A stretch of DNA of 62,315 nt, filler included, from Circinaria calcarea (taxonomy: Eukaryota), in assembly GCA_051942165.1 (NCBI GenBank). It is 4 parts of 4 records of this genome, joined end to end, with 100 filler letters (N's around TTAATTAATTAA, not from the genome) between each part and the next. Parts side by side here need not be neighbours in the genome. Positions count along the whole stretch, not along the records: positions 31,264 to 46,776 come from JAVECS010000363.1; 3 more parts are not named here. One strand, 5' to 3'. A program made the position numbers and the translations under genes. Of the stretch, positions 8,801-57,900 are shown piece by piece. Numbering within the stretch: the stretch's first letter is position 1; each line of letters begins with the position of its first letter. Under the pieces are notes generated by a model, which did not search any database, was not told where the DNA came from, and was given only the letters and a program-made list of their open reading frames with translations.

Positions 8801-9763
8801 GCTGCTGCTCGCAGTAACTGTGTGGAGGTAGTTCAAGTACTGCTTGAACACAATGCGAATGTTGAGGCGAAGAATATGCGTGGCTGGACTCCTTTACTCT
8901 GTGCTGTTCGCCGTGACATTGTGGAAGCAGTTCAATTGCTGCTTGAGCATAATGCGAATACCAAGGCTAAATTCGAAAACGACAAGACACCGTTACGCTA
9001 TGCTGCTCAACGGAGAAAATCGGCAATGGTCAAAGTACTGCTTGAACATAATGCAAACATCGAGGCCAAGAATGCAGATGGCGACACTCCTTTACTCTGT
9101 GCTGCTCAATTTGGCTATGGGGAAGTAGTTCAAATACTGCTTGAGCATAATGCGAATATCGAGGCCAAGAATATCAAAGGTAACACTCCTTTACTTTATG
9201 CTACTCGTTTTGGCCATGGAGAAGTAATTCAAATACTACTTGAGCATAATGCGAACATCGAGGCCAAGAATGCAGATGGCGACACTCCTTTACTTCATGC
9301 TGTTCGGAGATACCGTGTATCTACAGCAGTAGTACATGTGCTTCTTGAACATAATGCGAACATCGAGGACAAGAATGCATGTGACGATACTCCTTTACAC
9401 CTTGCTGTTGAGAATGGGGATATCGAAGTAGTACAGGTGCTTCTTGAACATAACGCGAATATCGAGGCCAAAGATGCACATAACGAGACTCCTGTACTTC
9501 GTGCAGCTCGTTTTGGGCACATAAAAATAGTTCGAATACTGCTTGAACATAATGCGAACATCGAGGCTAAAACCGCAAACGGCGAGACTCCTTTATACCT
9601 TGCTATTCGGAAAGAGTGTGTCGAAATTGTTCAACTACTACTCAAATACAAGGCCGATACGGAAGTACTAGACAACAGGAGCAAAGATTTTTTGGATTAT
9701 TGCAAGTCAAGGTCGGAGATAGAGCAGTTTATCATACATCACAGGCAGACGTTGAGAGAATAA
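5878..9763 (+). CDS. Fungal NLR: HeLo-like/fungal STAND N-terminal domain + NACHT + ankyrin repeats (6 exons)
   Basis: Introns 6300-6356, 6572-6619, 6791-6836, 6862-6912, 7486-7545 give one frame; N-term MADPLSVVAGVAGLL; ILDWLSP; Walker A GIPGAGKS; Walker B VFVVIDALDEC; RLVHYTTQEYF; about 12 ankyrin repeats. Confidence 0.92.
8570..9660 (+). repeat. Highly conserved ~99-bp ankyrin-coding tandem repeats
   Basis: Recurring cttga(a/g)cataatgc(a/g)aa(c/t)atcgaggc; 8718-8794 identical to 9018-9094. Confidence 0.9.
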
Positions 9764-15542: not shown

Positions 15543-15642
15543 NNNNNNNNNNNNNNNNNNNNNNNNNNNNNNNNNNNNNNNNNNNNTTAATTAATTAANN
15601 NNNNNNNNNNNNNNNNNNNNNNNNNNNNNNNNNNNNNNNNNN
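15543..15642. other. Artificial contig linker
   Basis: N44-TTAATTAATTAA-N44 (stops in all six frames). Confidence 0.99.
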
Positions 15643-31163: not shown

Positions 31164-31263
31164 NNNNNNNNNNNNNNNNNNNNNNNNNNNNNNNNNNNNN
31201 NNNNNNNTTAATTAATTAANNNNNNNNNNNNNNNNNNNNNNNNNNNNNNNNNNNNNNNNNNNN
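31164..31263. other. Artificial contig linker
   Basis: N44-TTAATTAATTAA-N44. Confidence 0.99.
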
Positions 31264-31320
31264 ATATAAAATATAAAATATAAAATATAAAATATAAAAT
31301 ATAAAATATAAAATATAAAA
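31264..31320. repeat. (ATATAAA)8 tandem repeat at contig start
   Basis: Direct reading. Confidence 0.97.
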
Positions 31321-31622
31321 TTAAGCGGTGTGCTGGCGGATCCGCATCCAGAATCGAGAGCTTTCAACGCCGCTTTTGACTGCCTTTCCGCCAACATTTC
31401 CACCGCTGCTTTTCACTCCACCCGTTCTGCCTGCCTGCCATCCCTTGCCCCTAATCTTCCTTTGCTTGAGAAGATATGATGCCCGCCTCGTCATCCTCCT
31501 GCAACCGATTATCGTTTTCGCTCTCATCTCTCGCGGTCTCTGCTCAGCCTCATTCCGATCCGTCTCAAATCTGGCGTCCTATTTTTCGCCTTCTTTATTA
31601 ACCGTGTACGTTGCCGGTCGAA

Positions 31623-33938
31623 ATGCCCGATACGATGTGGGAGAGGAAGCTCGACGTGTTGCCGCCCGGCAGCGACGATGATCTTTCGCCGGAGCATTAC
31701 ATCAGGATGGAGGAGGCCTTTAACGAGCTGACGGAGACGCGGATAGACTACGAAGAGACAACTATGAAGTTGCAGCAATTCGTCAAGGATCTTTGGTATG
31801 AGTGAGTAGTCTCTATCTAGCCTTCAATACTTCCGTTATTCTGACGACGAAGCAAGATACTTCAAGTTCACCCGTCGAGAACCCGAAGCCTGGAATGCGT
31901 TAAAGAAATTCCCTGTCCCTATCGTCAAAAGCTTCTTTGAATGGACGCTTCGTCATCGACTCCGTATACGTGCCCACAGTACCTTGCAGACATACTACAA
32001 CGTGCTCTGCTTGGTTCGATCAAGGGAGACGGGTATCTTTAGAGTGGATGAGGAGACAAAAAGAAAGATGACGGGGGTATTTAACTCCAGTCTCATCGGC
32101 TGCTCAGGGGCCTAAGAAGTACAGGTGAGCTGACGGATTTACAGGCAAGACAGCAGCTGGCCATTAAGCACAAGCTACGAATGAAGAAAAAGGATAAGCC
32201 GGTAATGCGAGTTGAGGATCTTTTTGAGATCCTCAAGACGATTCTCGTATCGCTGGACATGGTATTCGATCACGAACGGGACCGGATACAAACAATACTC
32301 TGGGTGCAGCTTATCGCTTATACCGGCAATAGACCTGCAGCTATTTCAGCCCTCTGCTACAAGAACTTCAAGGTTGCTCTTATACGGGATCCGGATAAGG
32401 AATATAAGGAAACCCTTGTCATCGATGTCACTGCTGCTGACACAAAAGGCTATCTCGGTGAGAAGGATGCGTGCGTATCCTTCAGTTACCCTCGAGCGAA
32501 AACTTTCTTAGGTCACGCCCATCAGCTGATGCTTTATCCAGGAATACGCTCCCTCTTCCTCCGATACGTCGCGAGCGCTGCCTTTTACTCTGTCTCCAGA
32601 CATCCATCCTTGGCCTGGCATTTGCCGACGAAGCATTTGCCAACGATTTCTCAGCCGAAAAGCTTTACCCTCTGAAACTTCGACCCGATCAGAACGAGCT
32701 GGAGTTGAAGTGGAAAGAGTCTATGGAAAACATGCCCATATTCCGTAGACCCATTCGCACGGTTCATGGCATGCGGACCTCACCCGACTCGGCCACCACC
32801 GCCGACACAATGCGCACGAGATTGAAAAAGAGTGGGGCTATCACAGGCATAGACGTTACAGTGCTTCCCTACAGTGGTCGAAGAGGCTTTGGGGAGGCCC
32901 TCGATAATAGCAGTAAGTCTGAATAAACTGCCTACTCTACAAGCCACTAACGTGGGTGTGCGTGCAGGCCAGATCAGCGTCGCTCAACGTAATCTTCTCA
33001 TGCAGCATGCTAGCTCACGAGTGTTCGAGAAGCGCTATCTCCCGCATCATACTACGGCTGACGTTCTGGCCGCCTACCGAGGACTTGATCCACAAGTTGC
33101 TTTACTGCGAGCAGCCACGGGACTGAGTCGCACGATCGATAGACGGCGGCCTTGGAGACTCAAAGCAGAACAGCGAAAGCGGGTCCAGGACCATCCCAAG
33201 GTCAAAATGTATTCCCACGCTTTGCAAGCATATCAGGAATGGGTCGACGAAGAACTAGGAGGTCTAAAAGTTATTCGAGACAACCCGGACTTCAAAGACC
33301 TTTATGAAGAATACCAGCAGCTCGTCCGAAATGTCCGTAACGAGAAGAGCTTCCAGGAAAGAGCACTTCTGGAAGAGATAAAAGCAAATTTCAGGAAGGA
33401 ACAACCTGTAAAAGACGTTCAAAGGCAGTTGGACGGATTTCCAGTTGAAGAAACCAACAACATATCCGCCGTTGCGGGTAATTACTCACTTCCAGAACGT
33501 GTTCGCGCAATCTCGTCGTTGCTTACCTTTGTCGACTCAGAGGACTCGCTTCCCGAAGTCGAAGAGCAACGACGAACGGAGGCTGTTGAGGCCGTGGCCT
33601 CTTTATGTTGTGCCCATGACGGTCGCCGTAGGACTCGATCGATTATTATCCCAGACGCCAAAAATGAAAAACACTCTTCACCAGCAGAGTCGGCGATGTC
33701 AACGCCATTGATATGTAAACGCCTCCAATGTAGCTTCTGTCTTCATGACGAGCAATTGGACTGGAGCACTCGTGTGAAGGAGTTCGCTAGAATTGACATT
33801 CTCAAGAAGCATCTCGACCGCTTTCACCTTAAGCCTCATCCAGAGGGTAAGCCGATCGCGTGCCCCGAATGTGGATTTGTCTGTGATCATAAAAATCATT
33901 TACGGAATCATGGAGGAGTCCATGGTATCCTGGTCTAG
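31623..33938 (+). CDS. DUF3435 tyrosine recombinase (Starship captain) with C-terminal zinc-finger-like motifs, 5 exons
   Basis: Introns 31802-31856, 32077-32144, 32471-32541, 32913-32967 give an uninterrupted frame; STLQTYYN, YTGNRP (R), DTKG (K), YSGRRG (R), LMQH (H), FEKRY (Y); CSFC..KHLDRFH and CPEC..HLRNH. Confidence 0.9.
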
Positions 33939-34508
33939 TCTTGTTCCATATTTCCCGGTGGACAGCGAGGGATGTGATGTATAAGTGTTAATCTTGTTAA
34001 GCGGGCTGTTTTCCGTCTTTGATTACGATGCATCGCCGGAGTTAAACCATAGGTTCAAATCATCCATTTTTCCTATATTGTTATCATTCGAGCATGTCTT
34101 GAGTTATCTTCTCATTGTCGATTATCAATTGACAAAATTAACGGTGCTTGTCAAACAAGCCAATACAGCATCATGGGCAAAGAAACAAAGTATATTTCAA
34201 ATGTTATCACCTGTGGCGCTGCTTTCTCGCAATAATATACCATGGGAAAGGACAGGGAGGAAGGGGTATTGTATGATTGGGCACTTATTGATATGTTTTC
34301 GACAACGCGCAAAGCATGATGTCCTTACTTTTGAAGCGCGTATAGCATACGACTTCCAGTGGGAATATATTCTCGGTATACATTATCTCTGTTGACTAAG
34401 GCGTGTTGTGGAGGGTTTTGGATTGGATGCTAAAGATTTATAAGGGAATCGTGTACAAGCGATAGCGTATAAAGTATACCGATCCCCATTATCCTTTCCG
34501 AAGCCTAT

Positions 34509-37500
34509 CTATGCCGATTCTCTACATTCAGAGAGTCGAAGGAAGGCAGGAGAATCATGCGGTTCCTCCTTCAAAGTATCCGCATCTGTCTTCTCAAACT
34601 CATACCGATAGCGAAGATCCTTCCTACACAGAATATCATCTACGTGCTCCGAGATCTGCTTGCTGATTTGGCGGAGAAAATCACCACGGTACTTGTCTAA
34701 TACATCTAAAAAGTAGGTGAACAGAGGTAACGACATCTTCTCAATCCTAGATAGTATTAATAGAGGCTTTCAACCATCAGAGTAGCAATGCTCACTCGGA
34801 ATTCTTAATCCCATATTCACCATCTGTAGGGATTAAAGCGAGTATACCACTATGAAACCTTTGCTGCATCAACCACCAATTTCGGCCGGTGTTCAGTCTG
34901 TTTTTCAAAGCTTTCAGCTTTTTTGAATAATCATCATCCGCCTTCCCCATGCGTGGCTTGGGTGACTTCAGATTAGGGTATGTTTCAGCCATTAGATTTT
35001 TCAAAGTCAGAGAAGCCGCGCTTCTATACTGCTTCTCTGAATTTTCCGAGGCTTCGTCAACAGCTTTCAGCCTCTTTGCTGTTCGTTTAGGCATCGTCTT
35101 CTGAGCATGACGTTCCTGTGCAAGTTGATTTTGAAATGCTAAATCTCGTTCCTCGCGGAGTTGAACTAGGTGCGCTAATTGGTAACGCCGGAGGATAGAC
35201 CCAACAGAGACTGCCGTATCTAAAGCTTCCAGATTATGTATTGTCTGAGCAACGTTGCCACCGATTTGAGGGACTACCAAAGCTTGGTTTTCCCGTATGG
35301 CGGTGTAAGCATCACGCAACTGATAGAAAGCATCATGACTAGCGATCGAGACTAGTAGACGGGTCAATGAGTTTGCCTCGGCATTCGATAGAATTCCATC
35401 AACTTTACAATTCAAGAACTCCGTGAATATCTGACTCGGTTGGGAGCGCACGTATGGTGATGGTTGTCGATTAAGGCGCTTTAGGATCTTATCATGTTGT
35501 CTCTCATATTGTTTCCAGGACATGAGGTCGCTGGTAGACTGTTGAGGTGTTTCCAATGTGGGCTTGCTCGCTTTCTTCGATAAAGGCTCCGGCCTTTTCC
35601 TTTTTCTTCCTCCCTTTGCGTGGATAAGTGCTGATTTATCGACAGGACAAGCATCTTCAGTCTCTAGATTAGCAGGATTAATAACCTCTTCCTCCTCCTC
35701 CTCCTCCTGCTCCTCCTCCTCCTCTTCCTCCTCCTCTGCTTCTTCGTCTTCTTGCTCTTCATCTTCGTTGCGCAGGCGCACCTTTTCGCTGTGGATAAAA
35801 CCAGCTGGGCACAATGGTTCTTCGCAGTCTCGGTATCCTAGGATGTTCCACTTTTGATCAGCATAATTGACCGCTTCCGCCAAATTGTAGCCCGCATTGA
35901 ATCCTTGGTGATAGGAACTGGGCAAGGTAACGACGGCTTCGTTGGGCAGCTGAGAAATCATTTTGAAGGAGATCCCCCATGCTTTTAGGGTCGAGCGTGG
36001 TATATACGTCGCGGAGTGACGTACGAATTGTTCACACTTTGTTTGATAATAAGATCCATTGGTGGTAAGAAGTTTGTCCTCTAGACGTTGAGCATGTCCT
36101 GGTGCAATAATCACCCAGACCTTAGGTTGCCCAGCGTAAAGATAGTTGATAGAATGCAGCCGGAGGTCTTCGCAGTGGATAGCAAAAGGTGCTCCAAAGG
36201 CGGGGCTGGCATGGTAAGAAAAAGGCCAATGGAGGCCGGGAATACGCTTTTTGGTCTCAGCGAGACGATCGCCCTTGAGAGGCCAGATTGGAGATTCCCG
36301 GGGAAAGCCGAATGTAGCGCGAGACGAAGGCTCTTTCGCATCTATATCAGCACAGTAATAGACATCTTCCAAGACACCTCCGGCCTGGTCTGTAAGAAGG
36401 CTTTCAAACCGCTGTATGAGTTGTTCAGCTGATGACGTATCTGTCGGACGAAGTTCTGCTTGAGTACTGATGTCGGACTCCTTCCTCTCGAGTTTAAAAG
36501 TACTATTATCTAGACGTTCGACGAGGAACCGATTTCCTTTCTGCGTTGTGGTAATTTGAGGGTCCGAGAGTTTGCGACCAGCCACACCCTCAGGGACTAG
36601 TACCTTGAAAGCACCACTTTCCTCTACACCAAGGGATTCCGCATATTGTAGAAGTCCAGGAAAGTCCTGCCACTGCTCCACAGTGGGTAGCAGCTTGAAA
36701 ACTTTATTTTCGATAGTGTAGTTGATGGAATTGCCGGCACGAGGAGGTGACTGTCTCCCTCTCGTATTGCTCATATATGTAGCGGCATCCACAGAAGGCA
36801 AATCTTCAGAGCTAATCATGGGGGTGGTTTTCTGGATTGTATCGTAAAGTTCTCCAGGAGTAGAGGTACCCTGGGTGATGTCTTCGTTTTCATGGAGGAT
36901 CTCATCAATGATATCTGCAGTAGCTTGAGAGATAACCTTCTCAGCTGTATATTGAATATCTTGACCGGAAAAGTTATCTACGGCTTTCTCAGCGATAGCT
37001 CCTTCGACTGTATGTCCTAGTTTTTCCGTACTGGACACTGGTTCAGCTATGAAGACTGCTCGACCGGGATATTGACCCTTGTCTATGGCAGAGGCCTCCT
37101 GAATCGTACCCCTAACCTCTCCTGATGGAAATGTCTCTTGAAGCGTACCTTGGATCTCATCGGCGGAAGAGGTTTCGGGACTTTGACGTTGAGTGTTATC
37201 GGAGACTACAGAAGCAATCAGAGTCGGAGGTGATACCACAGTCCCATCATGAAGTGGAGAAGCATGAAAAGAAGGCTGAAGTGGAGTATTGAAATCCTTT
37301 TGATAGCTTAGAGACTTGTTATGATTAGTGAGGCAGGATGAGCGCTGGTGGGTATAAAAACATCAGCAACCCCACGTCATGTTAAAAATACAAGTAGCTC
37401 TCATGTTCCGTGAAGACACTCAGGTGGGAAATACTTACAGGAGGAGCCTGAAGACCAAGGATGTAAGTTGACAGTGAGCGTATCCCATCGCTGATTTCTT

Positions 37501-37640
37501 TCGGCCGGTCACCACGGTTCTCCCATAGATCCGCTATTCTAAGACTAACGTCATCTCGAAGTTGTTGAAAGATCTTGAATGATAAGCGATAGACCTTGCA
37601 ATACATTAAGTGTACTTACATCTTCAATCCTAGACGCCAT
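34509..37640 (-). CDS. JmjN + JmjC histone demethylase-like protein (KDM4/Rph1-type catalytic core)
   Basis: JmjN LPTVEQWQDF..GAFKVLVP; JmjC FAIHCEDLRLHSINYLYAGQPKVW and YHQGFNAGYNLAEAVNYA; poly-Glu tract; KGGRKRKR; short 5' exons from ATG 37640 (inferred); last exon ends 34509. Confidence 0.85.
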
Positions 37641-38247
37641 TTGATTTCCAGATAACGCATTGAGGGCAGAAATTCTGTATTGTGGCTTTCTTGAAGTTGC
37701 GATTTTCTAGTCTAAACTAGATTAGGACGATTCGGTTTAACCGTGTTTCAGAGCTCCGTATTTGTTGAATGTCAAGCGAGCCAGCCATTGCGGCACGGCC
37801 TAACAGACGTCCAAAGAAGGTGTACCAAGGTCACGTGATTGAGTACTCTGCGCACACCGAGCATGGTGGTGCTCTCAGTGCTCTCAGTGCTCCAGTCCGT
37901 TCTATGTAGATCCAGTCATTACCCATGGTCTAGGATGCTCAACTCATCAAGTATCCTACACATACTAGTAATGTGCTTCCGCTATCACACCAGTACCTTA
38001 CCCTAGTTCTAGCCCTACCAGGGTCGCGAGCCAACCCCTTGTCCTCCTAGTCTACTGACGAAGCCTCTATTCTTATAGAGTCCAACTCGGAGCGTTACAT
38101 CGAGCAGGATTATCGCTATGTCCGAAGGTCCTCGTCGCTACCTAAGGATATGGGAATTCTCCAACATTTATAAGGATCGGATCGTGTCAGATATCATCCA
38201 ATTGATTATTACTGGGAGTCTGCTCTAGCTATCTCATTCAAGTTACC

Positions 38248-39391
38248 TTAGGCCTTCGTCTTTATCTCAATATCATACTTGGCAAACGGCAGAATGACTT
38301 TCTTACGGCCGTCGTCACCCTGCATCAGTACAAGTTGAGTGAAGAACTCGTCTCTTATATATCTCAACTCTTTGAATTCTTCTCGATCAGGATCGAAATT
38401 CCAAGGTTCTGTAGATGTGTCTGATACGTGGTCCTCAGAAAGTCTTCTCCGTTTCTGCCTAGGATCTTTATTCTCCTTACTCTCAGCATGATCTGCTGAA
38501 ACGTCAAAATCTGTAGCTTTTGGATGGTAGACTAATATGCTGACCTTCAACCCCTTCTACGATTTCCTCTTCGTCTGCAGCTCGTTTCCGTTTCAAGCCT
38601 TCTTCACTTCGTCCGGCTTCCGGGATCGCTTGGTCTTGTTGTGCGGTACTCGAGTATTCCTCACGTGTTAAGCAGCTTTCTTGGCGCAATGGCTCTCTTA
38701 AAGGACTAGGCGATGGACGTTGCCGCTGATTATTGGGGTATCTGGATGCTCGCGGTGTATCCTTCAGCAACTCTCGCTGTTCCCTATGATAAACTCTTAA
38801 CTCCTCGACGTATCTCTTCAACCTAGAATGATGATAATTGAACACTTCGAAGAGCTCTGTCAGGTTATCGCTAATACGCAAAGTGGCCTTTTGGTAATGA
38901 TCATCTCGTTGAAGCTGTTGTGATAGTTGAATAGGCGACGTCTCAGTGTCGGTGCAAAAAGTCTCATGCTGTCCGTTATCTTGTGACGACTGTTGTTTCA
39001 ACGTAGCAGGCGAACCTTCTGCAGGGAAGTCCTCCAGCTGAGAGTACTCCTCATGAATCCATTCCGCCAGCTTAAGAATGCAATATAGCCGTCCGATGAA
39101 GTCCCTAAGATCTGTCGCATAATCAGGGGTCAACCACAACCAGGACCATCCGTCTGAACTCGATCTTCTTGTACTGCATAAGTCGAGGACTAAGTCTTTT
39201 AATAACGTCTCGATCGCCACTTCAAACTCCTCCAAGCAGTCTTCCGAACTAGATCTACCAACCCTTTGCAGGTTTGCCGCTTTCGATTGCAAGTATTTGA
39301 TCCACTCCTCAATAGACTTCGCCCTCTCGAGTATCTTTCCTAGACGCGGGTCTTGTCCAACAGCGTGAGGGGAATTTGAAGTTGACATCAT
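38248..39391 (-). CDS. Hypothetical nuclear-like protein (two exons), possibly 3'-truncated by C to T mutations
   Basis: ORFs 38504-39391 and 38248-38550 join through a 49-nt GTCAGC..TTTCAG intron; basic motifs LKRKR, QKRRR. Confidence 0.55.
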
Positions 39392-40470
39392 TGAAGTTAG
39401 TTAGGAACGATACTGGAAATCGTAACAACGGAGTTTGGATCATTACTGTCTCCAGCAAAGGCGAAAGCGAGCTATATAAGAGGTACAAGGCGGATGCCCG
39501 GCCGTTTATTCCAGATTCAGATGCTCCCTTGCGTGAAATCAGCTCGACAGGTTAGCAGCGATCATCCATGGCAAGGGGGGGAAAGGGAAGGATTTCCGAA
39601 GTGAAACACACCTGTCTCATACTTGACTCCCTGTTACTCTATGTCCAGAAAGATGCCAGGGAGAAGTGTGATCGACTGTAGTTTGCCCTACCAAAACTAC
39701 CTGGTATAAAAATACCGAATAAGATGAGGAGAGGTAAAACAGACTTGCAAGATGAGATGAGAAATATGTGCATAACGTCAGTTCGGCTTCTTTGCCTATC
39801 TTAGCTTTATCCTGTTGACTGCTAACAGACTCAAATCTGAAATAGGCTTCCCAGATGTGTGCCTCTCTAGCTGTGTGACGCACCAACTGCTTTGCCTTAA
39901 GACAGCTATAGTAGTCACAGTGATTATAATCACAAGGCACATCTTGCATGCTTGCTCGATCCGGTGATCATCGGAAATTGTGCCTCTTGAATCCCATTAA
40001 GACTTAGCGCTTCTTCTTTTCCCTATTGCCCTTTTCCAGACATCCGCCATCTTCTAACATGCATTATTAACTCGTAAAGAGCCAATCCAAAGCTCCGTCT
40101 AATAAACCATCCCTGTTCTGTTTTCTCGCCTTCGGCCTGTAGACGGGATGGCTTATTGTCCTCTCATCATTCTAATCATCGACAACTGCAAGCTGAACTG
40201 ACAAGCTACAACCCCAAAGGCATTTTTACGGGGCGTCATGTCGCTCAGACTAGTAGGGATATGCAACCATCACTCCTTTAGCTCCTTTACTCTAGGCCTA
40301 TGCATCTTTGTGGCTCTGTCGAGCTTGTGGGTTTTCCATGTGAGCGTTCCAAAAATGAAGTCAGTAGCCTCTCCCCAGAAACCTGTAGCTGCCTAATCTG
40401 CGTCGCACACAACCAGATCCATGAGATGCATTGAACAAGGTCCCCCGTGCTGCTCAGTTGACCGAGGGTT

Positions 40471-42990
40471 CTAGCTCGAGAAGGTGCCTAGATGCGGCAC
40501 TGAGGTCAGTCTCAGCCGTTTTCCTAACAATCGCAGGGTTTCTGGATTGCTGTGTAAGTTGGCGATGCAAGGTGAGACGGTAAAGGTCCAGGCCGGGCTT
40601 GTTGTAGATCGTAAGGGTTGCCACGCGGGATTTCTTGATGGGTTGAAATTCTTTTTGACAAAGATCCTAGTAACGCTCAAACTGTACTTCGCGGAAGAAA
40701 CATGAAACTTCCAGGTAGAGAGCGTGTAGGGATGATCTAAATGGACTTTGTATGCGTTAGCTAACACTCTTTTATATTGTCGCAATCTGTCACTCCCTAC
40801 CCGGAGTTCAGTGGATAGATCGATTGTAAACGATGGATATCAATCAACCCTAGGCTTCACGACTTCCATCACGTGACACTCCCATTCCTCCTAGAGTATG
40901 TGATTTATAATGATTTTATGAATGTTTATGAACTGTCAAAACTGCACTTACTAAGCGAGAGCCGGCGCCATTAAATCATTCTCTGTACATAGAAACATTC
41001 GAGAGATTTTTGCAGATCTCAATAGATATACAAGATTTACCAATTCCGACACATGATTCCTCAAGTTTCGAAGTTGGCGTGATTGCTATAATGGTATAGG
41101 AGGTAATATCCTGCATTTCTATTAGAGGTGTACTGCTCGTTAATTGCAATATACTATACCACGGTGCCTCCTCCACATCTCCTAAGCGTCTACTGTCAAG
41201 ATTTTCTTTTTGTCCTCTCTTTCCTTCTCCCTTTCTTTATTGCTTTCCTCCCAAGCGTTTCCCCCTTCTTTACATTACCTTCTCGGCCTTCTCCTCTTGG
41301 CCTTCTCTTTCTCGGCTTTCTCCTTCTCGGCCTTCTTCTTTTCTGTCTTTCCTTTTTCGACCTTTCCCTTTGCGGTTATTTCGAGAAAATGTTCTTCGCA
41401 ACGTCTCTGTGGAAAAATATAAGACCAGTACAACGCTTCTAGAATATTACATACCAAAAGCATTTTCCATCTAACCAACGCCTCCGTTGCCACAATCATT
41501 GCTCTTTCGTCGCGTATGGAGAGATTAAATATCCATAATAAACCCTCGAAGGCAGTTACCCAGGCATCGTTATCAACTGCAAAAGCGAAAGCAAAGTTCG
41601 GCAGAGAGTAGGGTGGAAAATGTCGATAAGCCCAGCCAGCAGAGCCTAGAAATCTTATCTGGTCGGGAGTTAATTCATATAGTACTGCCCAGAACACTGA
41701 TTCGCCTATAACGAGAAGTTCTGGTGATTGCTCGCCAAGCCACCTCTGGTAGAATATTGATCGGAGAGCATAATGTGCCCACGAGGAAAGGAGGGAAGTG
41801 ACTGGCATTTTCCGTGTGTGACAATACCATAACTAGTTATACTTAGTACATTTTCAGTCCATTGAAAGAGATACCAACTTACTGCATCTTCGCTTGAACG
41901 AGCTGGCCTTCCAAAGGTCTGGGTGAACCAAATCTTGTAATCCTTTTCGTCGGTTAAAGAATCAAGGTTGTTTACGGGAGCCTGCAAAGTTGCCAAAGTA
42001 GTTATTGCACCTTTCATTCTGTAGGCTAACATGACTTGTCCGTAAAATCATTTGTTGTTTATTGTGATTGTCTTCCTGTTAGTGATTGTTAGCTTACTGG
42101 AAGCCTAATGTATATAAGACATACCCTCCGACGTTCCTCCAAGGTGCCTTCCATTCCCTCCATACTGCGGATATCAGTGCTAATAGTGATGATTGAATTA
42201 GCATACCTGGCGAGACCATGTATATCACACGAGGAAGGCCTTTGATTTAACGTTCAAAGCTCTACCGAATCAAACACCGTCTCCGCTCGTAATATTAAAA
42301 CACCTCGGCTGTGCAACGCACCGAAGAGCGAGCCCAACAGCATTGACTATCCCGGCCATGAAAGATAAGACCTTCTCAATTTGGCATCTGCCGCGATTAA
42401 CAGTTCACGCCACTTACCAAGAGTAGGGTCTCGAGTTTCGCCAGTTTGATTAGTGACGCTATGGCTTCCCCTATGCTGAAAGCTGCACAGCATATTATGC
42501 TCCTAGGCAAACAGGTAAGGGAATATTCCCGCATCGAATTGGATGTACGGATGGCTATGCTAATCCCTGCGGTTTGCAAAAGTGGGACCAGACTCGTCAC
42601 CAAGTAGAAAGCGATTGTCCAATAGCCGTTCCCGTGTTCATACTTCCTCCGACCTAGTCCTCACAATCGCTGCGTCTATTTTAAGTGAGATGACTGGTTG
42701 AATGTGAATGGCTGAGCTTTGAACCTTGTACACATAGCTCGCCCAAACGGATGTTAGCAACATCCATTCGATGCTACTTGGTACCCTTGCCATAACCCAG
42801 ATGGTCGGCATTGCACATAATAAGGAGAGAAGCGGCACAGGCAAAAGCTGGAAGAGGAATGGGGTAGGCAGCTGAGGTGTATGATACCATTCCGCTAGAA
42901 AGTCAATAAGCAGAAGCGTATAATGGTATGCAGGGCAAACGCCAATACTCTTTCTCATTATATAGGAATTGACGGGCATGATCTCTCCGA
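40471..42990 (-). other. Co-oriented coding-like segments; multi-exon orphan gene(s) or pseudogene
   Basis: ORFs 42638-42979, 42397-42603, 41706-42032, 41275-41808, 40471-40785 all on minus strand; no family recognised. Confidence 0.35.
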
Positions 42991-43079
42991 TCTCTTCGGG
43001 GTATAATTAGATCATCAAACTGGTTGGACGCCGAGAAAGCATCTACCATACGTACACACGAGAAGGCAGTTTTAGCGAG

Positions 43080-43216
43080 TAACCGTACCCGACTAAAAGC
43101 ATCCGCTTATGCTTAGTCGGGTACGGTTAATTGCATTTGCATGGCTTTAAACTCAGCACGCTATTCCATTTTCTCTGCGAGAATCTCGTAACAAAAATGG
43201 AATAGCGCGCACCGAG
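43080..43216. repeat. Two adjacent palindromic hairpins
   Basis: TAACCGTACCCGACTAA / TTAGTCGGGTACGGTTA (17 bp perfect, 43080-43129) and CGCTATTCCATTTT / AAAATGGAATAGCG (14 bp perfect). Confidence 0.9.
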
Positions 43217-43300
43217 ATTCCAATGCCAAGTCTCAAATTATCACCAACATCACGACAAGCAAGCAGCCACCATCGCTCAGTAGATGGTACATAAAATTGC

Positions 43301-43639
43301 ATGGACGCGTACTTTGGACCCCGTTATGTATCGTTCCAAAGGGTTACTTCAATGCCGAATCTGGGTTCGCACATCTTGCTGCTCACCGTTTTAATACGTG
43401 CACCAGTGCCAGTGCCGCAGAATGCGACTTCTAATACTGATTCTCCATTACTGTCTCCTCGCCGTATTCGAGACGACATGATTGCTCGGGAGTTGACCGG
43501 GGCATTACGAAAAGGCCTTCTTTGGGAACGGGAGGATAAACGTTCAACATTCAATGCGGTGTCCAAGTGTAGAAACACGGCTTACGATATTAACGAGAAC
43601 TGGGCTGATCCCCAAGACTATCATCAGAGGGGATGGTAG
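43301..43639 (+). pseudogene. Isolated C-terminal fragment resembling conserved fungal DUF3295 proteins
   Basis: LSPRRIRDDMIARELTGALRKGLLWEREDK...DYHQRGW* resembles the family's SPRTTRRNMLATELTESLR..LLWER...YH..GW end (from recall). Confidence 0.6.
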
Positions 43640-43960
43640 ACCATCTCCATAGACTCGTACAATTACGCCTGTCGTGGGTTCCTTCCGCTCACTCCTTTGC
43701 CTGTAAACGTAATTGGCTCAAGCAACTATTTTGATTTACTTAGTTCATTCTCCTGTGGGTCCTCTCTGCAACGTCTACAGCTCCACTGTATGTATGACAA
43801 AGGTAGCGTTGGTGAACTGCTTACTTGCCGTTTTTGCATCCACTTATGCGACAAACATCTAGTCATCCTTAATGGCATTTTATTAGCCCCACGTATCTTT
43901 TTTCCATATATCTACCCTTACTCTCCCTTCAGAGGGTGAATCAACTCTTTCCATCCCAAC

Positions 43961-44160
43961 ATGTGTGATTATACACAGGTCACCTACCTATGTAAACACG
44001 TTCATTACATAGTCAAAGCCTGGTGTACTCGTTATGAGCAGACACATGAGCGGTGTGCTCCAAATGTAGTGGCCTTGTGAGTTAGACTGTCAATTATGTC
44101 AATATTAGAGGGAAACTAACATGTCCTGTCTAAAGAGAAGCTAAGCCTGCAAAATGTGGT
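43961..44160 (+). CDS. Small Cys/His-rich protein; 3' exon unresolved; absent from ORF track
   Basis: MCDYTQVTYLCKHVHYIVKAWCTRYEQTHERCAPNVVAL, then GTGAGT donor at 44077, CTAAC branch, short exon EAKPAKC. Confidence 0.65.
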
Positions 44161-44488
44161 GTGTCCTCCGCTCTCTGTTCTCTGTTCTATGCTCCCTGTT
44201 CCCTCTTCTATACCATAATCCTCTTTGAATGCTGTTCACTAGCCTCACTTCTTTCCGTAATCTCGTTCAATCATTTCTATTCTTGATAAGAGGTCGATTA
44301 CAAACCCACAAACAGTAGCTAAATGCTCAAGACAGTTAAGATCATTGACACAGTGACATTAGGAAAATGTAAAGCTAGTTCGCCGAATCTACCAACCCCA
44401 AAATAGGCCCAACTCCGTTAAAGCACATTAATAATTGAACACTTTCGGAGACTATCTCATCTGCGTCATAGGACGGCGTGAATTCTGT

Positions 44489-45130
44489 CTATACTACGGC
44501 AAACCATCTATTAATCCTACGGTCATGAGGCCTGAACGCAGCTTCAGCCTGTCGCTGTATCACTAGCGCCTTGAGATGTGGCAATCTCGTAGCTTCCTGT
44601 CTACGTTTGAGCTCTTCCAAAGCTTCTCTGTCCCTTCGTTCGCGCTCTGCTTTTTCCAAGTCGGCCTTTAACTTCTCAGCTTTGGCAGCTTCTTCTTCGA
44701 TGGCGGCTTCCGCGGCGCGCATGCTTTCGGCCTGGCGTTGCATTTCTACCTCGAGTTCGTGGGCACGACGTTCGGCGGCAGCTTTATCGCGGAGAAGAGT
44801 CTGCCATGTGGACTTGGATACCCCGGGGTCTCGAGTTTGCGTCGGCTGAGATAGCTCTTCCGGGGTTTCTTGCGAAATTGGGAGTTGTTGACGTCCAAGA
44901 GCCTGATCCAGTAATTTGGTGACCTTGGGTCCGGTGTCCTACGTACTGTCCAATGAGATCTAAAGCCGAGCATTCTTCAACTGTAGCATTTGCCAAAAAG
45001 CCCATCTCATAAAACACTTTGCCAACCTTTCTCGCAGTTGTCGTCTTTCCCATTCCTGATCAGAAGCAATTAGCGCTGCTTAAACATTGAGAGAAGCTTC
45101 CACCATACCTGGAGGGTTTGCCACCGGGCT
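44489..45130 (-). pseudogene. Internally deleted CbxX/CfxQ-type AAA ATPase relic
   Basis: PPG/MGKTTTARKVGKVFYEMGFLANATVEECSALDLIGQYVGH, then frameshift and a coiled-coil tail. Confidence 0.7.
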
Positions 45131-45956
45131 CCACGTCTTGTATACCCGCTCCGGTTCTTGGATCCCATCGTATCGTGAAGAGTTTATAACGACAACATCA
45201 CCACATTACATGATGATGTCCTCCACCTGAAGGACATTGACGAAAGCCTGGCTGTGGAGTCATTTTACATCTGTAGGGAAGGTTGGTAGATTGGGAATGG
45301 TGTTGCGTTATATTGAGCGTTCGAAGGCTGGGCACGTGAAGCAGACCTATCCACGGAAACAGTAAACCTACTGATTAGACGAATGGTCCGATTTATCCGT
45401 TAGAGACAACGAAGGAAGAATGGTGTCACATGTAGCTACGGAAAAGGGCGACGAAGAGATGATTGGTCATGATAAGATTTGAATCAACGAGTCGGCTGCA
45501 TGTCAGGGCTGACTGAACTAAAAACATCAAGCAACCTGATCGCAACGACCCTTCCACCACCATTGTCAAGCCAAAGGACAAGATTACCTCAACTATAACG
45601 AGCCGGGGCTTTAAGGATGCTCGAGACTGGGTGAAGGGATAAAGCGATGAATTTATAATAGCTGTTAATGGCAGGGTGATAGACACGTCCAGACGTCCAT
45701 ATCGGAACCAACTGAGCATAGCACGCTGTCTTCATCGACGAATGAACCCACTCTGTTCGACTCTGACACATCGGCTGACGAACTTACCCTAAAAGCCAGT
45801 TATCTCGAAAACCATTTAACAAGTAGTGAGTGAGCCTCGATTTCGGAACAGGGGAGAAAGCCTATCGCCGCTATATAGACATTCCATACTGACTGGTTCC
45901 AAGTACTTTGCCAGAGTGCTGTGGACCCCTTAGGCTGCCGTACTCTTGGTTATTTT

Positions 45957-46492
45957 CAATGTATGTACACCTTCGTTACATATACGTACACCCAAACCAT
46001 CATATATGTACACCCCCGGATCAGGCAAAAAAATGGAAAATCTGAATAAGCATATGATACGCGATCTTTGAACCCACCAGTGGTAATAAAAGAGGGGTGG
46101 GCAAAGCTACGAAAGCTACGGGGGACCCGGCGAGTGCGTGTTATAGCAGATATAAGATGAGGTAAAAGCGCTAGAAGCTATGGCAGTCGTGGAGGACGAG
46201 GGCGGCGGCGGGGTGAGAGGCGTGGAAGAAATAGAATAGCACTAATAATGGCAGCGGAGTTAATACAGCCAGTATAGCCAGCAGATGAAGGTACATTTAT
46301 CAATTCTCAGCTATATTATCGGAGAATAAAAAGCAATTTATATGGCAGCTTAACTGTATTTTAATATAAATCCCCGAATAATCTAAGCCGTGCGCGTTCA
46401 ACTTATATAACGTCGATTACTGCCAATCCAGGGGGGGGGTGGGGTATGATATCTTGAGTGTACATGTATGTAATAAAGGTGTACATACATTG
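45957..46492. mobile_element. Non-autonomous TIR element (536 bp)
   Basis: 48-bp TIRs 45957-46004 and 46445-46492, 40/48 identical, beginning CAATGTATGTACACCTT; no internal ORF; no clear TSD. Confidence 0.8.
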
Positions 46493-46776
46493 GGATCCTT
46501 TAACAATCGCATAACAGCATATAGCTACCGAGACGAGGTGACTCTATTTGCCTGAGAAAATCCTGGACCATCGGCCCTGCTTTCATCGTTTTCAGACGTA
46601 GTTATGGGCTGGCGCTCATCAGAAAATAAAAAACAAGACCAGTAACGTTCACGAAAGTTCAATGAAACAAGGAATTCTACGGGATATTCTACGATCTGCG
46701 CTCAGATTCGATCCTCCTCACCAGTATAGCAGTGTTCTCAATACCCCACCCCACTTACCCTGGGGTGGGGTGGGGT

Positions 46777-46876
46777 NNNNNNNNNNNNNNNNNNNNNNNN
46801 NNNNNNNNNNNNNNNNNNNNTTAATTAATTAANNNNNNNNNNNNNNNNNNNNNNNNNNNNNNNNNNNNNNNNNNNN
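46777..46876. other. Artificial contig linker
   Basis: N44-TTAATTAATTAA-N44. Confidence 0.99.
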
Positions 46877-54966: not shown

Positions 54967-57900
54967 ATGGAAATGGTAAGTCCTGACCATATTTTCTGTC
55001 GATGAAGGGGCCGCTCGCTGCAGTTTACCTACTACAAGCTCTGTAATGTACTGATAAACCTTTGGTAGTTCCGCAAGCATAATCACAAATTCGGCTGGCG
55101 TCGCTCAGAAGAAGAGAAAGACAAAGGCGATGATGAGCAAAGAGATTATACTCTTTCTAAAGCCAATACCTTAGCAGAGGGACTCGCTAGCAGCGCTGGC
55201 CCAAACCTGCCTGCAAAAAGAGCTTCTGAACCTTCCACCAGTCGAAGTGAATCCATTACACCTGATCAAGTACAGCGAAATGCCTCAGTTACCTCCAATG
55301 CTGGCTCCGAGTTTCCGGCAAGCGTGTCACACATTGGACAATCCAGTACTATCAATACTTCATCTACGTCTGATCCTCTTGGGTTGACATTAGTATACAT
55401 TTCTCCAGACCCTCTGCTAGACTTAATTTTCGTTCATGGACTGGGTGGGACATCGACAGGGACGTGGTCATGGGAGAGAGATCCAGCGAACTTTTGGCCG
55501 CCTTGGCTTGGCAGGGACGTAGAACTGTCAAGGTCCAGGATATTCAGTTTCGGATACAATGCTTCTTTTGTGGGCAACTACACATCTTTTAACATTCTCG
55601 ATTTTTCCAAAGATCTGCTGTTCCGGATGAAAACGTTCTCGAATGAGTATCAGCACGACGACCCGCCAATCGGAAAGGCACATCCCCAAACTATATCTCA
55701 ATTCCCAGAATTTTAGCTTATGCTTTCTTTAGTTTCCGATTGTTTTTATAGCACATTCCATGGGAGGCTTAGTGGTGAAAAAGGTTTTTTGATGCCCCTC
55801 GTTTCCGAACTCAAGTGCTAAGAACGCAACTATAGGCATATATCATTGGAAAATCCGACCAGCAATTCACCGATATCATTACTCGTGTATCCGCAATGGT
55901 TTTTCTTGCTACCCCTCACAAAGGCTCAGCATTCGCTCAGACGCTTAACAGCATACTTAAGGCAGCACCTGGAGGAAGCGCAAAAGCATACGTGGCAGAA
56001 CTAGAGAAAAACTCGAGTGCTTTACAAGATATCAACGAACAGTTCCGAAATATTTGCGGAGATCTCGAGCTCGTCTCTTTCTACGAGACACAGAAAACTA
56101 GTGTTGGAGCAGGGATTAAGAGAATGGTAAGTGCATAATATTTAGGGTATCCCAATCTTAAGCTACTATAGTTCTGATGTAGGTAGATTGTGGACAGGGA
56201 TTCTGCCATTCTCGGTTACCCCGGTGAAACTTCAAGTTCGTTGGTCGCCGATCATCATGGCATGGCAAAGTTCAGAAGTCCGCTCGACACTAATTATACA
56301 GATGTTAGAAATGTATTGAGATGGCTTATGAAAAGGTTTACTAACGAAAAGGCGATAGAGCCAGGTAAGCCTCGTATGAGGTTACGTTGCTCCACTTATA
56401 ACTAAGCATTGTAGCAGCTCTTATTTACGGAAGCAACAAGCCAGTCCAGGATACCGTAGGACTCATTACAAAGCCGCCGTGTGAAGTATTGGCCAAAGAA
56501 CGACTCATAACTCTTCTTGGAATAAACGAGAGTCTCGAGGATGACTTTGAGTTTCTCGCGGAAAAAATAATGCAAGGGTCCTGTTCATGGCTCTTACACA
56601 GGCAAGCTTTCCGAGAATGGGCTGGGACAAGCCCTAACTCGTCCGGGTTGTATTGGCTAACAGGAAATCCTGGATCAGGGAAGTCAACTTTGGCGAGTTT
56701 TGTTATAGCGTGGATTAAAAATAACTCCTTCGCTGGCACTTGTAACTACCATTTCTTCCTAGCAGGGCATCAGACTAAGAGAACCATTTCGTATCTCCTT
56801 CGGAGTATTGCCTTACAGGCTGCATTATCTCACGGGGTCTTCTGCTCGCGACTTTTAGAGCTCCACGAGAATACTGGAATCAATTTCATTCAATCAAAAG
56901 CTATTGTTATATGGGAGAAGATATTTGAGGGGATCTTATTTCGACTACCTTTGGAAAGACCGTTGTATTGGGTTTTTGATGGTTTAGATGAGGCTGAGTC
57001 ACCTTCGGAGCTTATACGATTCCTTTCGAAAATCAGGTCTGCTACGCGAATCAATATCCTTCTGGTTAGCCGAGCCACCAAGAACCTTATACAGGAGATA
57101 AACCACCATCTACCCACGATGGTCCACGAGACTATTTCCAATGACGATACAGTGGATGATATCCGAGATTATGTACGCTGTTTAGTACAGGAGATTTTGC
57201 CAAGCGACCATGCACAGGAAGAAATCATCCAAGATATTCTTATTAAAGCTTCAGGGTCTTTCTTATGGGTCAAGCTAGCATTGGAGAGGATCAGAGATAA
57301 TTGGCATACTAAAGACGATATCAAGGCCGCACTGACTGAGATTCCTGAGGGAATGGAGCCACTATATGAGAGAATGATTGAGATTATAGCAAGTCAGCCA
57401 CCAAAGCTTCGCGAAATGGCTACTCAGATATTGACCTGGGTCGCATGTTCGTTTAGACCTCTTGATGTCGCCGAGCTGCAAGTTGCTTTAACACCGAGAT
57501 TCGCAAACTTCGTCAATCTCAAACATACAGTCGAGGAGGTTTGCGGGCACTTTGTTATAGTGAACAAGTCTAAGATTACCCTGATTCATCAAACAGCTCG
57601 TCAGTTTTTGCTCCATAAGACCTCAGATCTTCAGATCAAGATAGTGGATCACGAAGGACATAAGCATATCGCCATGATATGCATTGACTTCCTCTCAGAT
57701 ATGCCGAAGTGGAGGCGGATATTTACGGCAAAACAAGCATCCCTGCAGAAGTCATCTTCGAGTGATGTTGCTGTCTTTGATGAACACCCATTCCTATTCT
57801 ATGCTTTATCCTTCTGGACGTATCATATCAGCCTCTCTTCGGTAGATTCCGACGATTTGCTGGAGACTGTTCTGGTATTCTTGGAAATTAACTGCCTGCT

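What the first reader, a model, noticed from the sequence alone, without database searches (positions are those of the whole stretch)
31623..37640. Captain paired with an intact KDM4-like JmjC demethylase: possible element-encoded anti-silencing module
Seen: the first gene after the recombinase, in convergent orientation, has JmjN and JmjC with Fe(II) ligands H-x-E...H (HCED, YHQG), the 2-oxoglutarate Lys (PKVW), an NLS-like KGGRKRKR and an acidic tract. No PHD or zinc-finger reader is visible, and the C-terminal helical domain is unfamiliar. Both genes are intact while downstream cargo is decayed. Known: KDM4-type enzymes remove H3K9me3/H3K36me3, and H3K9me3 drives transposon silencing in filamentous fungi. 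Inference: the element carries its own chromatin eraser. Best candidate for a new system in this window.
Basis: partly seen in the sequence, partly recalled or inferred. Interest (0 to 1): 0.85.

Follow-up and report, generated by a model that had tools for sequence, protein, structure and literature searches.

The report
Captain beside KDM4-like demethylase gene
A fungal giant-transposon recombinase gene lies tail to tail with an intact histone-demethylase-like gene from a little-studied, many-copied gene family that often rides inside such transposons, but the tight pairing seen here does not recur elsewhere.

Summary
An intact DUF3435 recombinase gene (31623-33938, +; 5 exons, 688 aa) is convergent with an intact JmjN/JmjC gene (37640-34509, -; 4 exons, 980 aa). 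All the iron, 2-oxoglutarate and zinc residues of KDM4 enzymes are present.

Three corrections:
- The window is four contigs glued by artificial linkers. The pair lies on a 15.5-kb metagenome contig (31264-46776), so no element boundary or host flank can be read.
- The gene is not the housekeeping KDM4. It belongs to a large clade across filamentous ascomycetes (Pezizomycotina), sister to canonical KDM4, with its own C-terminal helical domain. Some relatives are fused to SET domains.
- Adjacency to a captain is not conserved. 0 of 7 distinct genomic contexts (29 metagenome loci) hold DUF3435 in the flanks held (2.4-10 kb). In 4 annotated Starships the JmjC gene lies 31-46 kb from the captain.

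JmjC genes are nevertheless annotated in 33 predicted Starships in a published supplementary table that no paper I could search discusses. One relative lies in a segment of at least 22 kb that is duplicated and hypermutated.

Verdict: probably recurrent mobile-element cargo, not a dedicated two-gene module. The anti-silencing role is plausible but untested.

The parts
31164..31263 (.). Artificial contig joint (N44-TTAATTAATTAA-N44). Everything to its left is a different contig.
   Evidence: the same linker occurs at 15543-15642 and 46777-46876
31264..31321 (.). (ATATAAA)x8 microsatellite at the very start of the contig, 302 bp before the captain's ATG
31623..33938 (+). DUF3435 tyrosine-recombinase ('captain'-type) gene. 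Exons 31623-31801, 31857-32076, 32145-32470, 32542-32912, 32968-33938; 688 aa; full-length DUF3435 plus two C-terminal C2H2-type motifs
33939..34508 (.). Convergent intergenic spacer (570 bp). Contigs of runs X2 (2) and X4 (1) match to the right of 34234 but carry the same different sequence to its left. X1 and X2 pieces end at 34226 and 34233.
34509..37640 (-). KDM4-like JmjN/JmjC gene. Exons 37640-37620, 37573-37439, 37344-34796, 34746-34509; 980 aa
   Evidence: The last exon is conserved just downstream of the main exon in 25 of 29 family loci.
36562..36711 (-). JmjN-like segment (residues 23-72 of P0001)
   Evidence: no Pfam JmjN hit
35863..36186 (-). Pfam JmjC match. Fe(II) ligands H442/E444 (36169-36177) and H531 (35908-35910); 2-oxoglutarate Lys K460 (36121-36123), in full-length numbering
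35809..36036 (-). Cys/His positions C489, H495, C559, C564, conserved across the family and lying where KDM4 enzymes bind structural zinc (that placement in KDM4 is recalled)
   Evidence: C248, C318 and C323 (P0001 numbering) are invariant and H254 is at least 90% conserved in 44 sequences; coordinates
35593..35766 (-). Acidic tract (35686-35766) followed by the basic NLS-like KGGRKRKR (35593-35616). AlphaFold confidence is low here (pLDDT below 50 for residues 370-422 of P0001).
34509..35445 (-). Family-specific C-terminal helical domain (P0001 445-661 plus the last exon). The database's precomputed annotation calls it PF28402 in relatives. No solved fold matches.
37641..46776 (.). Rest of the contig: unannotated ORFs (38248-39400, - strand), a DUF3295 C-terminal fragment (43295-43636, +), and a high-copy repeat edge at 46730-46776

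Best explanation
On a 15.5-kb metagenome-derived ascomycete contig, an intact Starship-type DUF3435 recombinase gene reads inward from the contig's start. Tail to tail with it lies an intact gene for a nuclear Fe(II)/2-oxoglutarate lysine demethylase of KDM4 architecture (JmjN-like, JmjC, zinc site).

That gene belongs to a large, fast-diverging, often multi-copy clade found across Pezizomycotina. The clade is sister to the housekeeping KDM4 and has its own C-terminal helical domain; in some lineages a SET methyltransferase domain is fused instead. Members lie in varying, non-syntenic contexts and in duplicated, hypermutated DNA. By annotation, they also occur inside many Starships, usually tens of kb from the captain.

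The gene here is therefore best read as passenger (cargo) DNA of a mobile or accessory region, and its place next to the captain is particular to this element. It is not half of a conserved captain-demethylase unit.

Shown: gene structures, catalytic residues, fold, clade, variable contexts. Inferred: that the enzyme is active, that it acts on H3K9me3/H3K36me3-type marks, and that this benefits the element.
For: Gene models and motifs.

KDM4-like core:
- phmmer against solved structures puts KDM4A-D chains first (E 8e-30 to 2e-28), ahead of Rph1 (2.5e-18) and KDM5 (about 1e-15).
- AlphaFold model of mean pLDDT 83. Foldseek's top hits are KDM4A/D: TM-score normalised to the target 0.64-0.73, 25-28% identity over about 300 columns.
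- H201, H290, C248, C318 and C323 are invariant, and E203, K219 and H254 at least 90% conserved, in 44 sequences.

Separate, large family:
- 136 clusters at E <= 1e-30, of 3888 at E <= 1e-3.
- At least 25 of the 150 listed hits extend through the C-terminal domain.
- The family forms a clade (support 99) apart from KDM4 (support 100).
- Named relatives come from Fonsecaea, Exophiala, Cladophialophora, Cyphellophora, Xylona, Canariomyces, Gaeumannomyces, Peziza, Glutinoglossum, and Pycnora and Chaenotheca MAGs.

Variable context:
- Only the JmjC gene is shared between contig C and the 29 loci (tblastx).
- 0 of 80 loci gave a tblastn hit to the captain's exons at E <= 1e-5.
- 0 of 94 ORFs from representatives of all 7 contexts hit DUF3435.

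Mobile or duplicated DNA:
- 17 loci are copies of one segment of at least 22 kb, with one-directional C>T/G>A hypermutation (1690 of 1766 mismatches between L003 and L021) and 4-20 in-frame stops in the mutated copies.

Starship cargo by annotation:
- 38 JmjC rows in 33 Starship ids of Table S7, PMC11162782.

Constraint:
- 12 of the 20 variant sites shown in the CDS are synonymous.
Against: - I could not fetch the Fusarium, Colletotrichum or Pyricularia Starship JmjC proteins. That they belong to this same clade rests on their annotation (JmjC only, or JmjC+SET, genes of about 3 kb) and on Fonsecaea and Gaeumannomyces relatives being in the clade, not on an alignment.
- No boundaries, direct or inverted terminal repeats, or empty site are available for this contig, so it is not shown that either gene is inside a mobile element.
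- In run X1 a related strain (96-98% identity) appears to keep the captain and the JmjC gene together at even depth (8 overlapping or abutting pieces over 31423-37598). That would also fit a conserved captain-proximal core.
- The tree is FastTree only, with 3 KDM4 rows (2 of them named basidiomycetes, 1 unnamed) and 3 KDM5 rows as outgroups.
- Many of the 33 Starship ids are near-copies in Fusarium oxysporum strains and are not independent.
Confidence: 0.6

Rival explanations
1. The captain and the JmjC gene form a dedicated two-gene unit: the demethylase strips H3K9me3 from the element so that the captain stays expressed and the element stays mobile.
For: Tight convergent spacing of 570 bp. 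Both genes are intact. Run X1 seems to hold the same pair in a strain 2-4% diverged. The captain is 359 bp from the contig start, similar to the 342-611 bp between element end and captain in 5 Starships of Table S7, so the JmjC gene would be the first cargo gene.
Against: 0 of 7 distinct contexts of family members have DUF3435 in the flanks held. In 4 of 4 Starships checked the JmjC gene is 31-46 kb from the captain. Runs X2 and X4 hold the JmjC side joined to a different left flank at 34234. Nothing links the two proteins functionally.
Confidence: 0.12
2. The JmjC gene is an ordinary, if fast-evolving, chromosomal gene of this fungus. A solo or degenerate DUF3435 element, or the end of a Starship lying to the left, happens to abut it.
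For: An alternative left-hand junction at 34234 in runs X2 and X4, with pieces of X1 and X2 ending at 34226 and 34233, marks a breakpoint between the two genes. Summed contig depth in X2 is 20-60 over 33.9-41.1 kb against 4-11 over most of the captain (the tool warns that summed depth is not a copy number). None of the usual Starship accessory genes (DUF3723, ferric reductase, patatin, NLR) were found on contig C.
Against: A captain normally reads into its element, which here means towards the JmjC gene (established knowledge of Starships; layouts in Table S7). The family's non-syntenic, duplicated and Starship-annotated contexts elsewhere argue against a stable chromosomal gene.
Confidence: 0.2
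3. The adjacency is an assembly or binning artefact: a chimeric metagenome contig.
For: The window is a glued set of metagenome-type contigs. Only metagenome runs hold the stretch, at shares of 0.26 or less. De Bruijn-graph pieces break at 34226-34234.
Against: In run X1, pieces 33589-34226 and 34198-34387 overlap by 29 nt at matching depth (5.9 and 6.3) and continue into the JmjC gene.
Confidence: 0.05

Closest known systems
KDM4/JMJD2 histone H3K9me3/H3K36me3 demethylases (human KDM4A-D, yeast Rph1)
   Same: JmjN-like plus JmjC core, HxE...H iron triad, 2-oxoglutarate Lys/Asn, Cys/His zinc positions. Best sequence and fold matches among solved structures.
   Different: A separate clade. No PHD/Tudor or C2H2 reader. 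Its own C-terminal helical domain with no solved-fold match. At least 136 diverged clusters rather than one orthologue. Activity untested.
Starship giant transposons with a DUF3435 captain and accessory genes (PMC9156397 from the search listing only; PMC11162782 Table S7)
   Same: A full-length DUF3435 gene reading inward from a DNA end. JmjC and JmjC+SET genes are annotated in 33 predicted Starships.
   Different: No terminal repeats, target site or empty site can be read here. None of the usual accessory genes are on the contig. In the Starships checked, the JmjC gene is far from the captain.
Fungal DNA transposons that encode a TET/JBP dioxygenase (Kyakuja/Dileera/Zisupton and others; PMC12730594, search listing and start of abstract only)
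   Same: The same idea: a mobile element carries an Fe(II)/2-oxoglutarate dioxygenase that can remove a silencing mark.
   Different: The mark there is DNA 5-methylcytosine and the enzyme is TET/JBP, with cut-and-paste transposases. Here the likely mark is histone methyl-lysine, the recombinase is a tyrosine recombinase, and the linkage is not conserved.
JmjC-SET fusion proteins of Chaetothyriales (Exophiala, Cladophialophora, Fonsecaea, Cyphellophora)
   Same: Their JmjN/JmjC cores fall inside the same clade (E 1e-48 to 1e-56 to the query). 'JmjC,SET' genes are also annotated in Starships.
   Different: They carry a SET domain where this protein has the PF28402-type helical domain.
Enterprise-family Starship captains with a CHROMO domain (passage in PMC11162782)
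   Same: A chromatin-related function carried by a Starship.
   Different: That is a heterochromatin reader fused to the captain, proposed to guide insertion. It is not an eraser encoded by a separate gene.

Membership tests
KDM4-type JmjC lysine demethylase | JmjC double-stranded beta-helix with the HxE/D...H Fe(II) triad | tested here: met
   Pfam JmjC E 1.7e-23. H201 and H290 are invariant and E203 at least 90% conserved in 44 sequences. Aligned to the KDM4 motifs.
KDM4-type JmjC lysine demethylase | 2-oxoglutarate-binding Lys/Asn on the strand after the triad | tested here: met
   N211 and K219 align to the 'SINYLHFGEPKTW' stretch of KDM4 chains. K219 is at least 90% conserved; N211 is invariant in the 12-sequence set. 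The roles of these residues are recalled.
KDM4-type JmjC lysine demethylase | JmjN domain packed on the JmjC core | tested here: inconclusive
   No Pfam JmjN hit at E <= 0.01. The phmmer piece covering residues 23-72 scores 11.7 bits on its own. The KDM4D alignment spans 29-314 and the model superposes on KDM4A over up to 333 columns.
KDM4-type JmjC lysine demethylase | Structural zinc site (Cys, His, Cys, Cys) | tested here: met
   C248, C318 and C323 are invariant and H254 at least 90% conserved. Their equivalence to the KDM4A ligands is recalled, not measured.
KDM4-type JmjC lysine demethylase | Falls within the canonical KDM4 clade; reader domains (PHD/Tudor, or C2H2 as in Rph1) | tested here: not met
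   Sister clade in FastTree (supports 99 and 100). No reader domain found by Pfam.
KDM4-type JmjC lysine demethylase | Demethylates H3K9me3/H3K36me3 | not testable with these tools
   Needs an enzyme assay.
Starship element | DUF3435 tyrosine recombinase as the first gene, reading inward from the 5' end | tested here: met
   Full-length DUF3435, 359 bp from the contig start and reading inward.
Starship element | Defined ends (direct repeats, often terminal inverted repeats) and an empty site in other genomes | not testable with these tools
   The contig ends at 31264 and 46776. No genome is held. The runs are short metagenome contigs.
Starship element | Large cargo, with frequent accessory genes (DUF3723, ferric reductase, patatin-like, NLR) | tested here: not met
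   None of these were found on contig C. The NLR genes in the window lie on other contigs.
   0 of 29 family loci by tblastn. 0 of 94 ORFs from all 7 contexts by Pfam. 31-46 kb apart in 4 of 4 Starships read.

The most novel reading that the evidence does not exclude
Starships and similar giant mobile DNA of filamentous ascomycetes recurrently carry their own KDM4-like histone demethylase, in some lineages fused to or accompanied by a SET methyltransferase. This enzyme rewrites H3K9/H3K36 methylation over the element, keeping the captain and cargo expressed after arrival in a new genome. That would explain why some Starship families escape heterochromatin, a pattern reported as unexplained for Arwing-family elements in Pyricularia (bioRxiv 10.64898/2026.01.28.702382; passages read).
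Probability: 0.2. Interest if true: 0.8.

Novelty: new variant of a known kind. Interest (0 to 1): 0.5.

Why it matters
How giant transposons avoid or tolerate heterochromatic silencing after moving between fungal genomes is an open question. A recent preprint reports that some Starship families stay euchromatic and offers no mechanism.

A histone-demethylase family that is multi-copy, fast-evolving and repeatedly annotated inside Starships is a concrete candidate. The question can be tested with existing ChIP-seq data and Starship catalogues.

I found no paper that mentions Starships together with JmjC or histone demethylases. Searches for 'starship'+'jmjc' and for 'starships'+'histone demethylase' each returned 0 papers. 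'starship'+'demethylase' returned 7. In the two that concern Starships, the passages read are about sterol and pisatin demethylases. The other five I judged unrelated from their titles in the listing. The main text of the paper whose Table S7 lists these genes never mentions them.

If the gene is ordinary cargo, the finding is a new member of an uncharacterised KDM4-like clade.

Tried and rejected
- No whole genome is held for the window, so copy number and the host's own KDM4 could not be checked.
- Earlier findings of this scan: nothing by place, sequence or words that bears on the pair.
- No RNA holder is listed among the sequencing runs, so splicing and expression are untested.
- Parts of contig C without cover in the four runs (41.1-43.2 kb and 44.2-45.8 kb) are not interpreted.
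- The records behind the loci could not be searched whole, so captains more than 10 kb away remain possible.
- A word-index search with a 44-sequence profile found no new full-length family member and reached no Fusarium or Colletotrichum proteins. Its only new rows were one 348-aa near-identical fragment (96% identity) and three canonical KDM4/KDM5-type proteins.
- The captain search among longer proteins found nothing, so the captain's family and taxon are unassigned.
- 30 cluster look-ups gave 13 named relatives but none from Fusarium.
- C-terminal domain: the Atlas gave no usable hit. The domain-only model has pLDDT 68, and its best structural match has Z 4.5, with none at Z >= 5 among 48,161 chains. 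No fold is assigned.
- The Atlas on the catalytic core only repeats JmjC/JmjN.
- The IQ-TREE quick search did not finish; FastTree was used instead.
- The loose-end consensus at 34234 does not occur elsewhere in the window.
- Classical RIP on contig C is rejected: TpA/ApT is 0.61-0.96 and (CpA+TpG)/(ApC+GpT) is 1.03-1.35.
- No complex prediction was run, because no binding is claimed.
- An enrichment figure for JmjC in Starships was considered (38 rows beside 601 'cap' rows) but not claimed. The stored table is cut, many elements are near-copies, and I had no genome-wide background.

Full report
WHAT IS THERE

The window is not one stretch of DNA. Three identical artificial joints (44 N, TTAATTAATTAA, 44 N) at 15543-15642, 31164-31263 and 46777-46876 glue four contigs together. 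The finding lies wholly on the third contig, 31264-46776 (15.5 kb). The GH17, NLR, PIG-N, hexokinase and Kei1 genes elsewhere in the window are therefore not its neighbours.

Only metagenome runs labelled metagenome, rock or biocrust hold parts of the stretch, at shares of 0.26, 0.25, 0.06 and 0.05, and none is RNA. The source is probably a metagenome-assembled ascomycete genome. No whole genome is held.

THE TWO GENES

The contig opens with (ATATAAA)x8. The captain's ATG follows at 31623, which is 359 bp from the contig start.
- Pfam DUF3435 is matched end to end (profile 1-417 of 418), but over three frames.
- Four GT..AG introns of 55, 68, 71 and 55 nt restore a single 688-aa frame with no internal stop.
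- The frame ends in two C2H2-type motifs.

The JmjC gene lies on the other strand, with its stop 570 bp from the captain's stop.
- It starts at 37640, has introns of 46, 94 and 49 nt, and ends at 34509, giving 980 aa with no internal stop.
- The last exon is conserved just beyond the main exon in 25 of 29 related loci, which supports the last intron.

THE ENZYME

- Among solved structures, KDM4A-D are the best sequence matches (E 8e-30 to 2e-28). The KDM4D alignment runs from residue 29 to 314 of the main exon and so includes a JmjN-like start.
- An AlphaFold model built on 44 sequences has mean pLDDT 83, with a disordered acidic/basic linker at residues 370-422.
- Its core superposes on KDM4A/D with TM-score 0.64-0.73 (normalised to the target) and 25-28% identity.
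- Across 44 family members the two iron histidines and three cysteines are invariant. The iron glutamate, the 2-oxoglutarate lysine and a histidine are at least 90% conserved.
- Of the 20 variant sites that read laying showed inside the coding sequence, 12 are synonymous, as expected for a gene under constraint.
- The C-terminal helical domain is conserved in the family and carries the label PF28402 in the database's precomputed annotation. My Pfam copy lacks that model. Folded alone, the domain reaches only pLDDT 68 and matches no solved fold (best Z 4.5).

NOT THE HOUSEKEEPING KDM4

- The word-index search returned 22 proteins. Eleven have JmjC plus PF28402 (E 5e-278 to 7e-77). Five are JmjC-SET fusions from Exophiala, Cladophialophora and unnamed sources. 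Proteins with the canonical KDM4 or KDM5 domain sets appear only at E 8e-17 to 9e-12, over 23-30% of the query.
- The exhaustive search found 3888 cluster representatives at E <= 1e-3 and 136 at E <= 1e-30. At least 25 of the 150 listed extend through the C-terminal domain.
- Named relatives span Chaetothyriales, lichen-fungus MAGs, Xylona, Sordariales, Magnaporthales, Pezizales and Geoglossales.
- In a FastTree tree of 54 rows rooted on 3 KDM5 rows, the 48 family rows form one clade (support 99) and the 3 canonical KDM4 rows another (support 100). The outgroups are few and the method is quick. An IQ-TREE run did not finish.

IS IT TIED TO CAPTAINS?

One scan of metagenome contigs gave 80 loci, of which L001-L029 carry family members.
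- They fall into 7 distinct genomic contexts.
- tblastn with the four captain exon translations found nothing in any of the 80 loci at E <= 1e-5.
- A Pfam scan of 94 ORFs of at least 110 aa, from one representative of each context, found no DUF3435. Flanks ranged from 2.4 to 10 kb.
- tblastx shows that nothing but the JmjC gene is shared between contig C and these loci.
- Contigs of runs X2 (2) and X4 (1) match the window to the right of 34234 but share a different sequence to its left. The JmjC side therefore exists in at least one other left-hand context.
- Against this, run X1 covers 31423-37598 in 8 overlapping or abutting pieces at 96-98% identity and depth 4-8. A related strain seems to keep the pair.

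IS IT MOBILE-ELEMENT CARGO?

Two lines of evidence say the family often is.

First, 17 of the 29 loci are copies of one segment of at least 22 kb.
- Assemblies hold an intact copy (0 in-frame stops in the JmjC exon of L003 and L010) and copies carrying 4-20 stops.
- The differences are almost all one-directional C>T/G>A: 1690 of 1766 between L003 and L021.
- That is the mark of repeat-targeted hypermutation on a large duplicated unit.
- Its flanks hold SRF-type, DnaJ and patatin-like ORFs; the SRF and patatin hits are weak.

Second, Table S7 of the starfish paper (PMC11162782) lists 38 rows annotated JmjC or JmjC,SET in 33 predicted Starships.
- By my reading of the genome codes they come from Colletotrichum, Fonsecaea, Fusarium, Ilyonectria, Lasiodiplodia, Macrophomina and Pyricularia.
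- Most are genes of about 3 kb with no other domain.
- Where I read both coordinates, the JmjC gene lies far from the captain: 30.6 kb (colaen1_s04027), 46 kb (fonped1_s04882), 35.5 kb (fusoxy21_s05919) and 32 kb (fusoxy22_s05925).
- One Pyricularia element holds two JmjC genes and a SET/zf-MYND gene.

I could not fetch those proteins, so their membership of this clade is inferred from annotation and from Fonsecaea and Gaeumannomyces relatives in the clade. The paper's main text never mentions JmjC, demethylase or histone.

HOW IT MOST LIKELY WORKS

- Shown: the protein has an intact KDM4-type active site, a basic nuclear-localisation-like patch, and a conserved extra domain.
- Inferred: it enters the nucleus and removes methyl groups from tri- or di-methylated lysines, most likely H3K9 or H3K36 as KDM4 enzymes do.
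- Speculative but testable: as a passenger of mobile or accessory DNA, it could thin heterochromatin over its own neighbourhood.

A 2026 preprint reports that Arwing-family Starships in Pyricularia carry little H3K9me3/H3K27me3 and 'appear to be avoiding' heterochromatin. It names no mechanism (passages read) and does not mention element-encoded chromatin enzymes.

The nearest described parallel is the set of fungal DNA transposons that encode TET/JBP dioxygenases (PMC12730594, listing and start of abstract only).

VERDICT

The gene is a new member of an uncharacterised KDM4-like clade that tends to travel with mobile DNA. The specific claim of a captain-demethylase module fails its own proposed test of co-occurrence. 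The broader idea of a Starship-borne chromatin eraser survives as an unpublished, testable lead.

Noticed in passing
window 15543-15642, 31164-31263, 46777-46876: Three identical artificial joints (N44-TTAATTAATTAA-N44) show that the window is four separate contigs glued together. Any reading that relies on linkage across them is unsafe.
   Followed up: yes
L003:1-21950 against L016, L021, L028 and L029 (whole loci): A segment of at least 22 kb carrying a JmjC homologue exists as intact and as hypermutated copies. The C>T changes hit the first C of 5'-CpC: 1556 of 2137 CpC sites (73%) between L003 and L021, against 1-4% at CpA, CpG and CpT, and TCC at 86%. This differs from the usual CpA preference of RIP. 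One paper search ('repeat-induced point mutation' + 'CpC') listed only general RIP papers, which I did not read.
   Followed up: partly
P0014-P0016, P0018, P0019, P0096, P0102, P0113: In Chaetothyriales (Exophiala, Cladophialophora, Fonsecaea, Cyphellophora) the same JmjN/JmjC core is fused to a SET domain: an eraser and a writer of lysine methylation in one protein. 'JmjC,SET' genes are also annotated in four Starships of Table S7.
   Followed up: partly
Table S7 of PMC11162782 (parts 292, 297, 305, 347); L003:222-677, L003:4076-5972, L017:3961-4599, L024:10644-11198: Starships that hold JmjC genes also hold SRF-type MADS, DnaJ, F-box, dynamin, BTB and SET/zf-MYND genes. The flanks of the metagenome JmjC loci contain several of the same domain types. 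'SRF-TF' occurs 116 times in the stored part of the file.
   Followed up: no
window 46730-46776: The right end of the contig is the edge of a high-copy repeat. Contigs of runs X1 and X3 match from 46730 on, with differing sequence before it, and summed depth there is 18-85.
   Followed up: no
window 43295-43636 (+): An isolated match to the C-terminal part of DUF3295 (profile 395-457 of 496, E 7e-18). It could be a gene fragment or an exon of an unmodelled gene.
   Followed up: no
window 5845-9763 (+) and 56402-60232 (+): Two NLR-type genes (SesA/PigL_N + NACHT + ankyrin, and NACHT + WD40) lie on other contigs of the window and are not linked to the captain.
   Followed up: no
P0028: A 1604-aa predicted protein matches the JmjC query in 15 separate stretches (E 6e-119). 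It may be a tandem array or a read-through of repeated copies.
   Followed up: no
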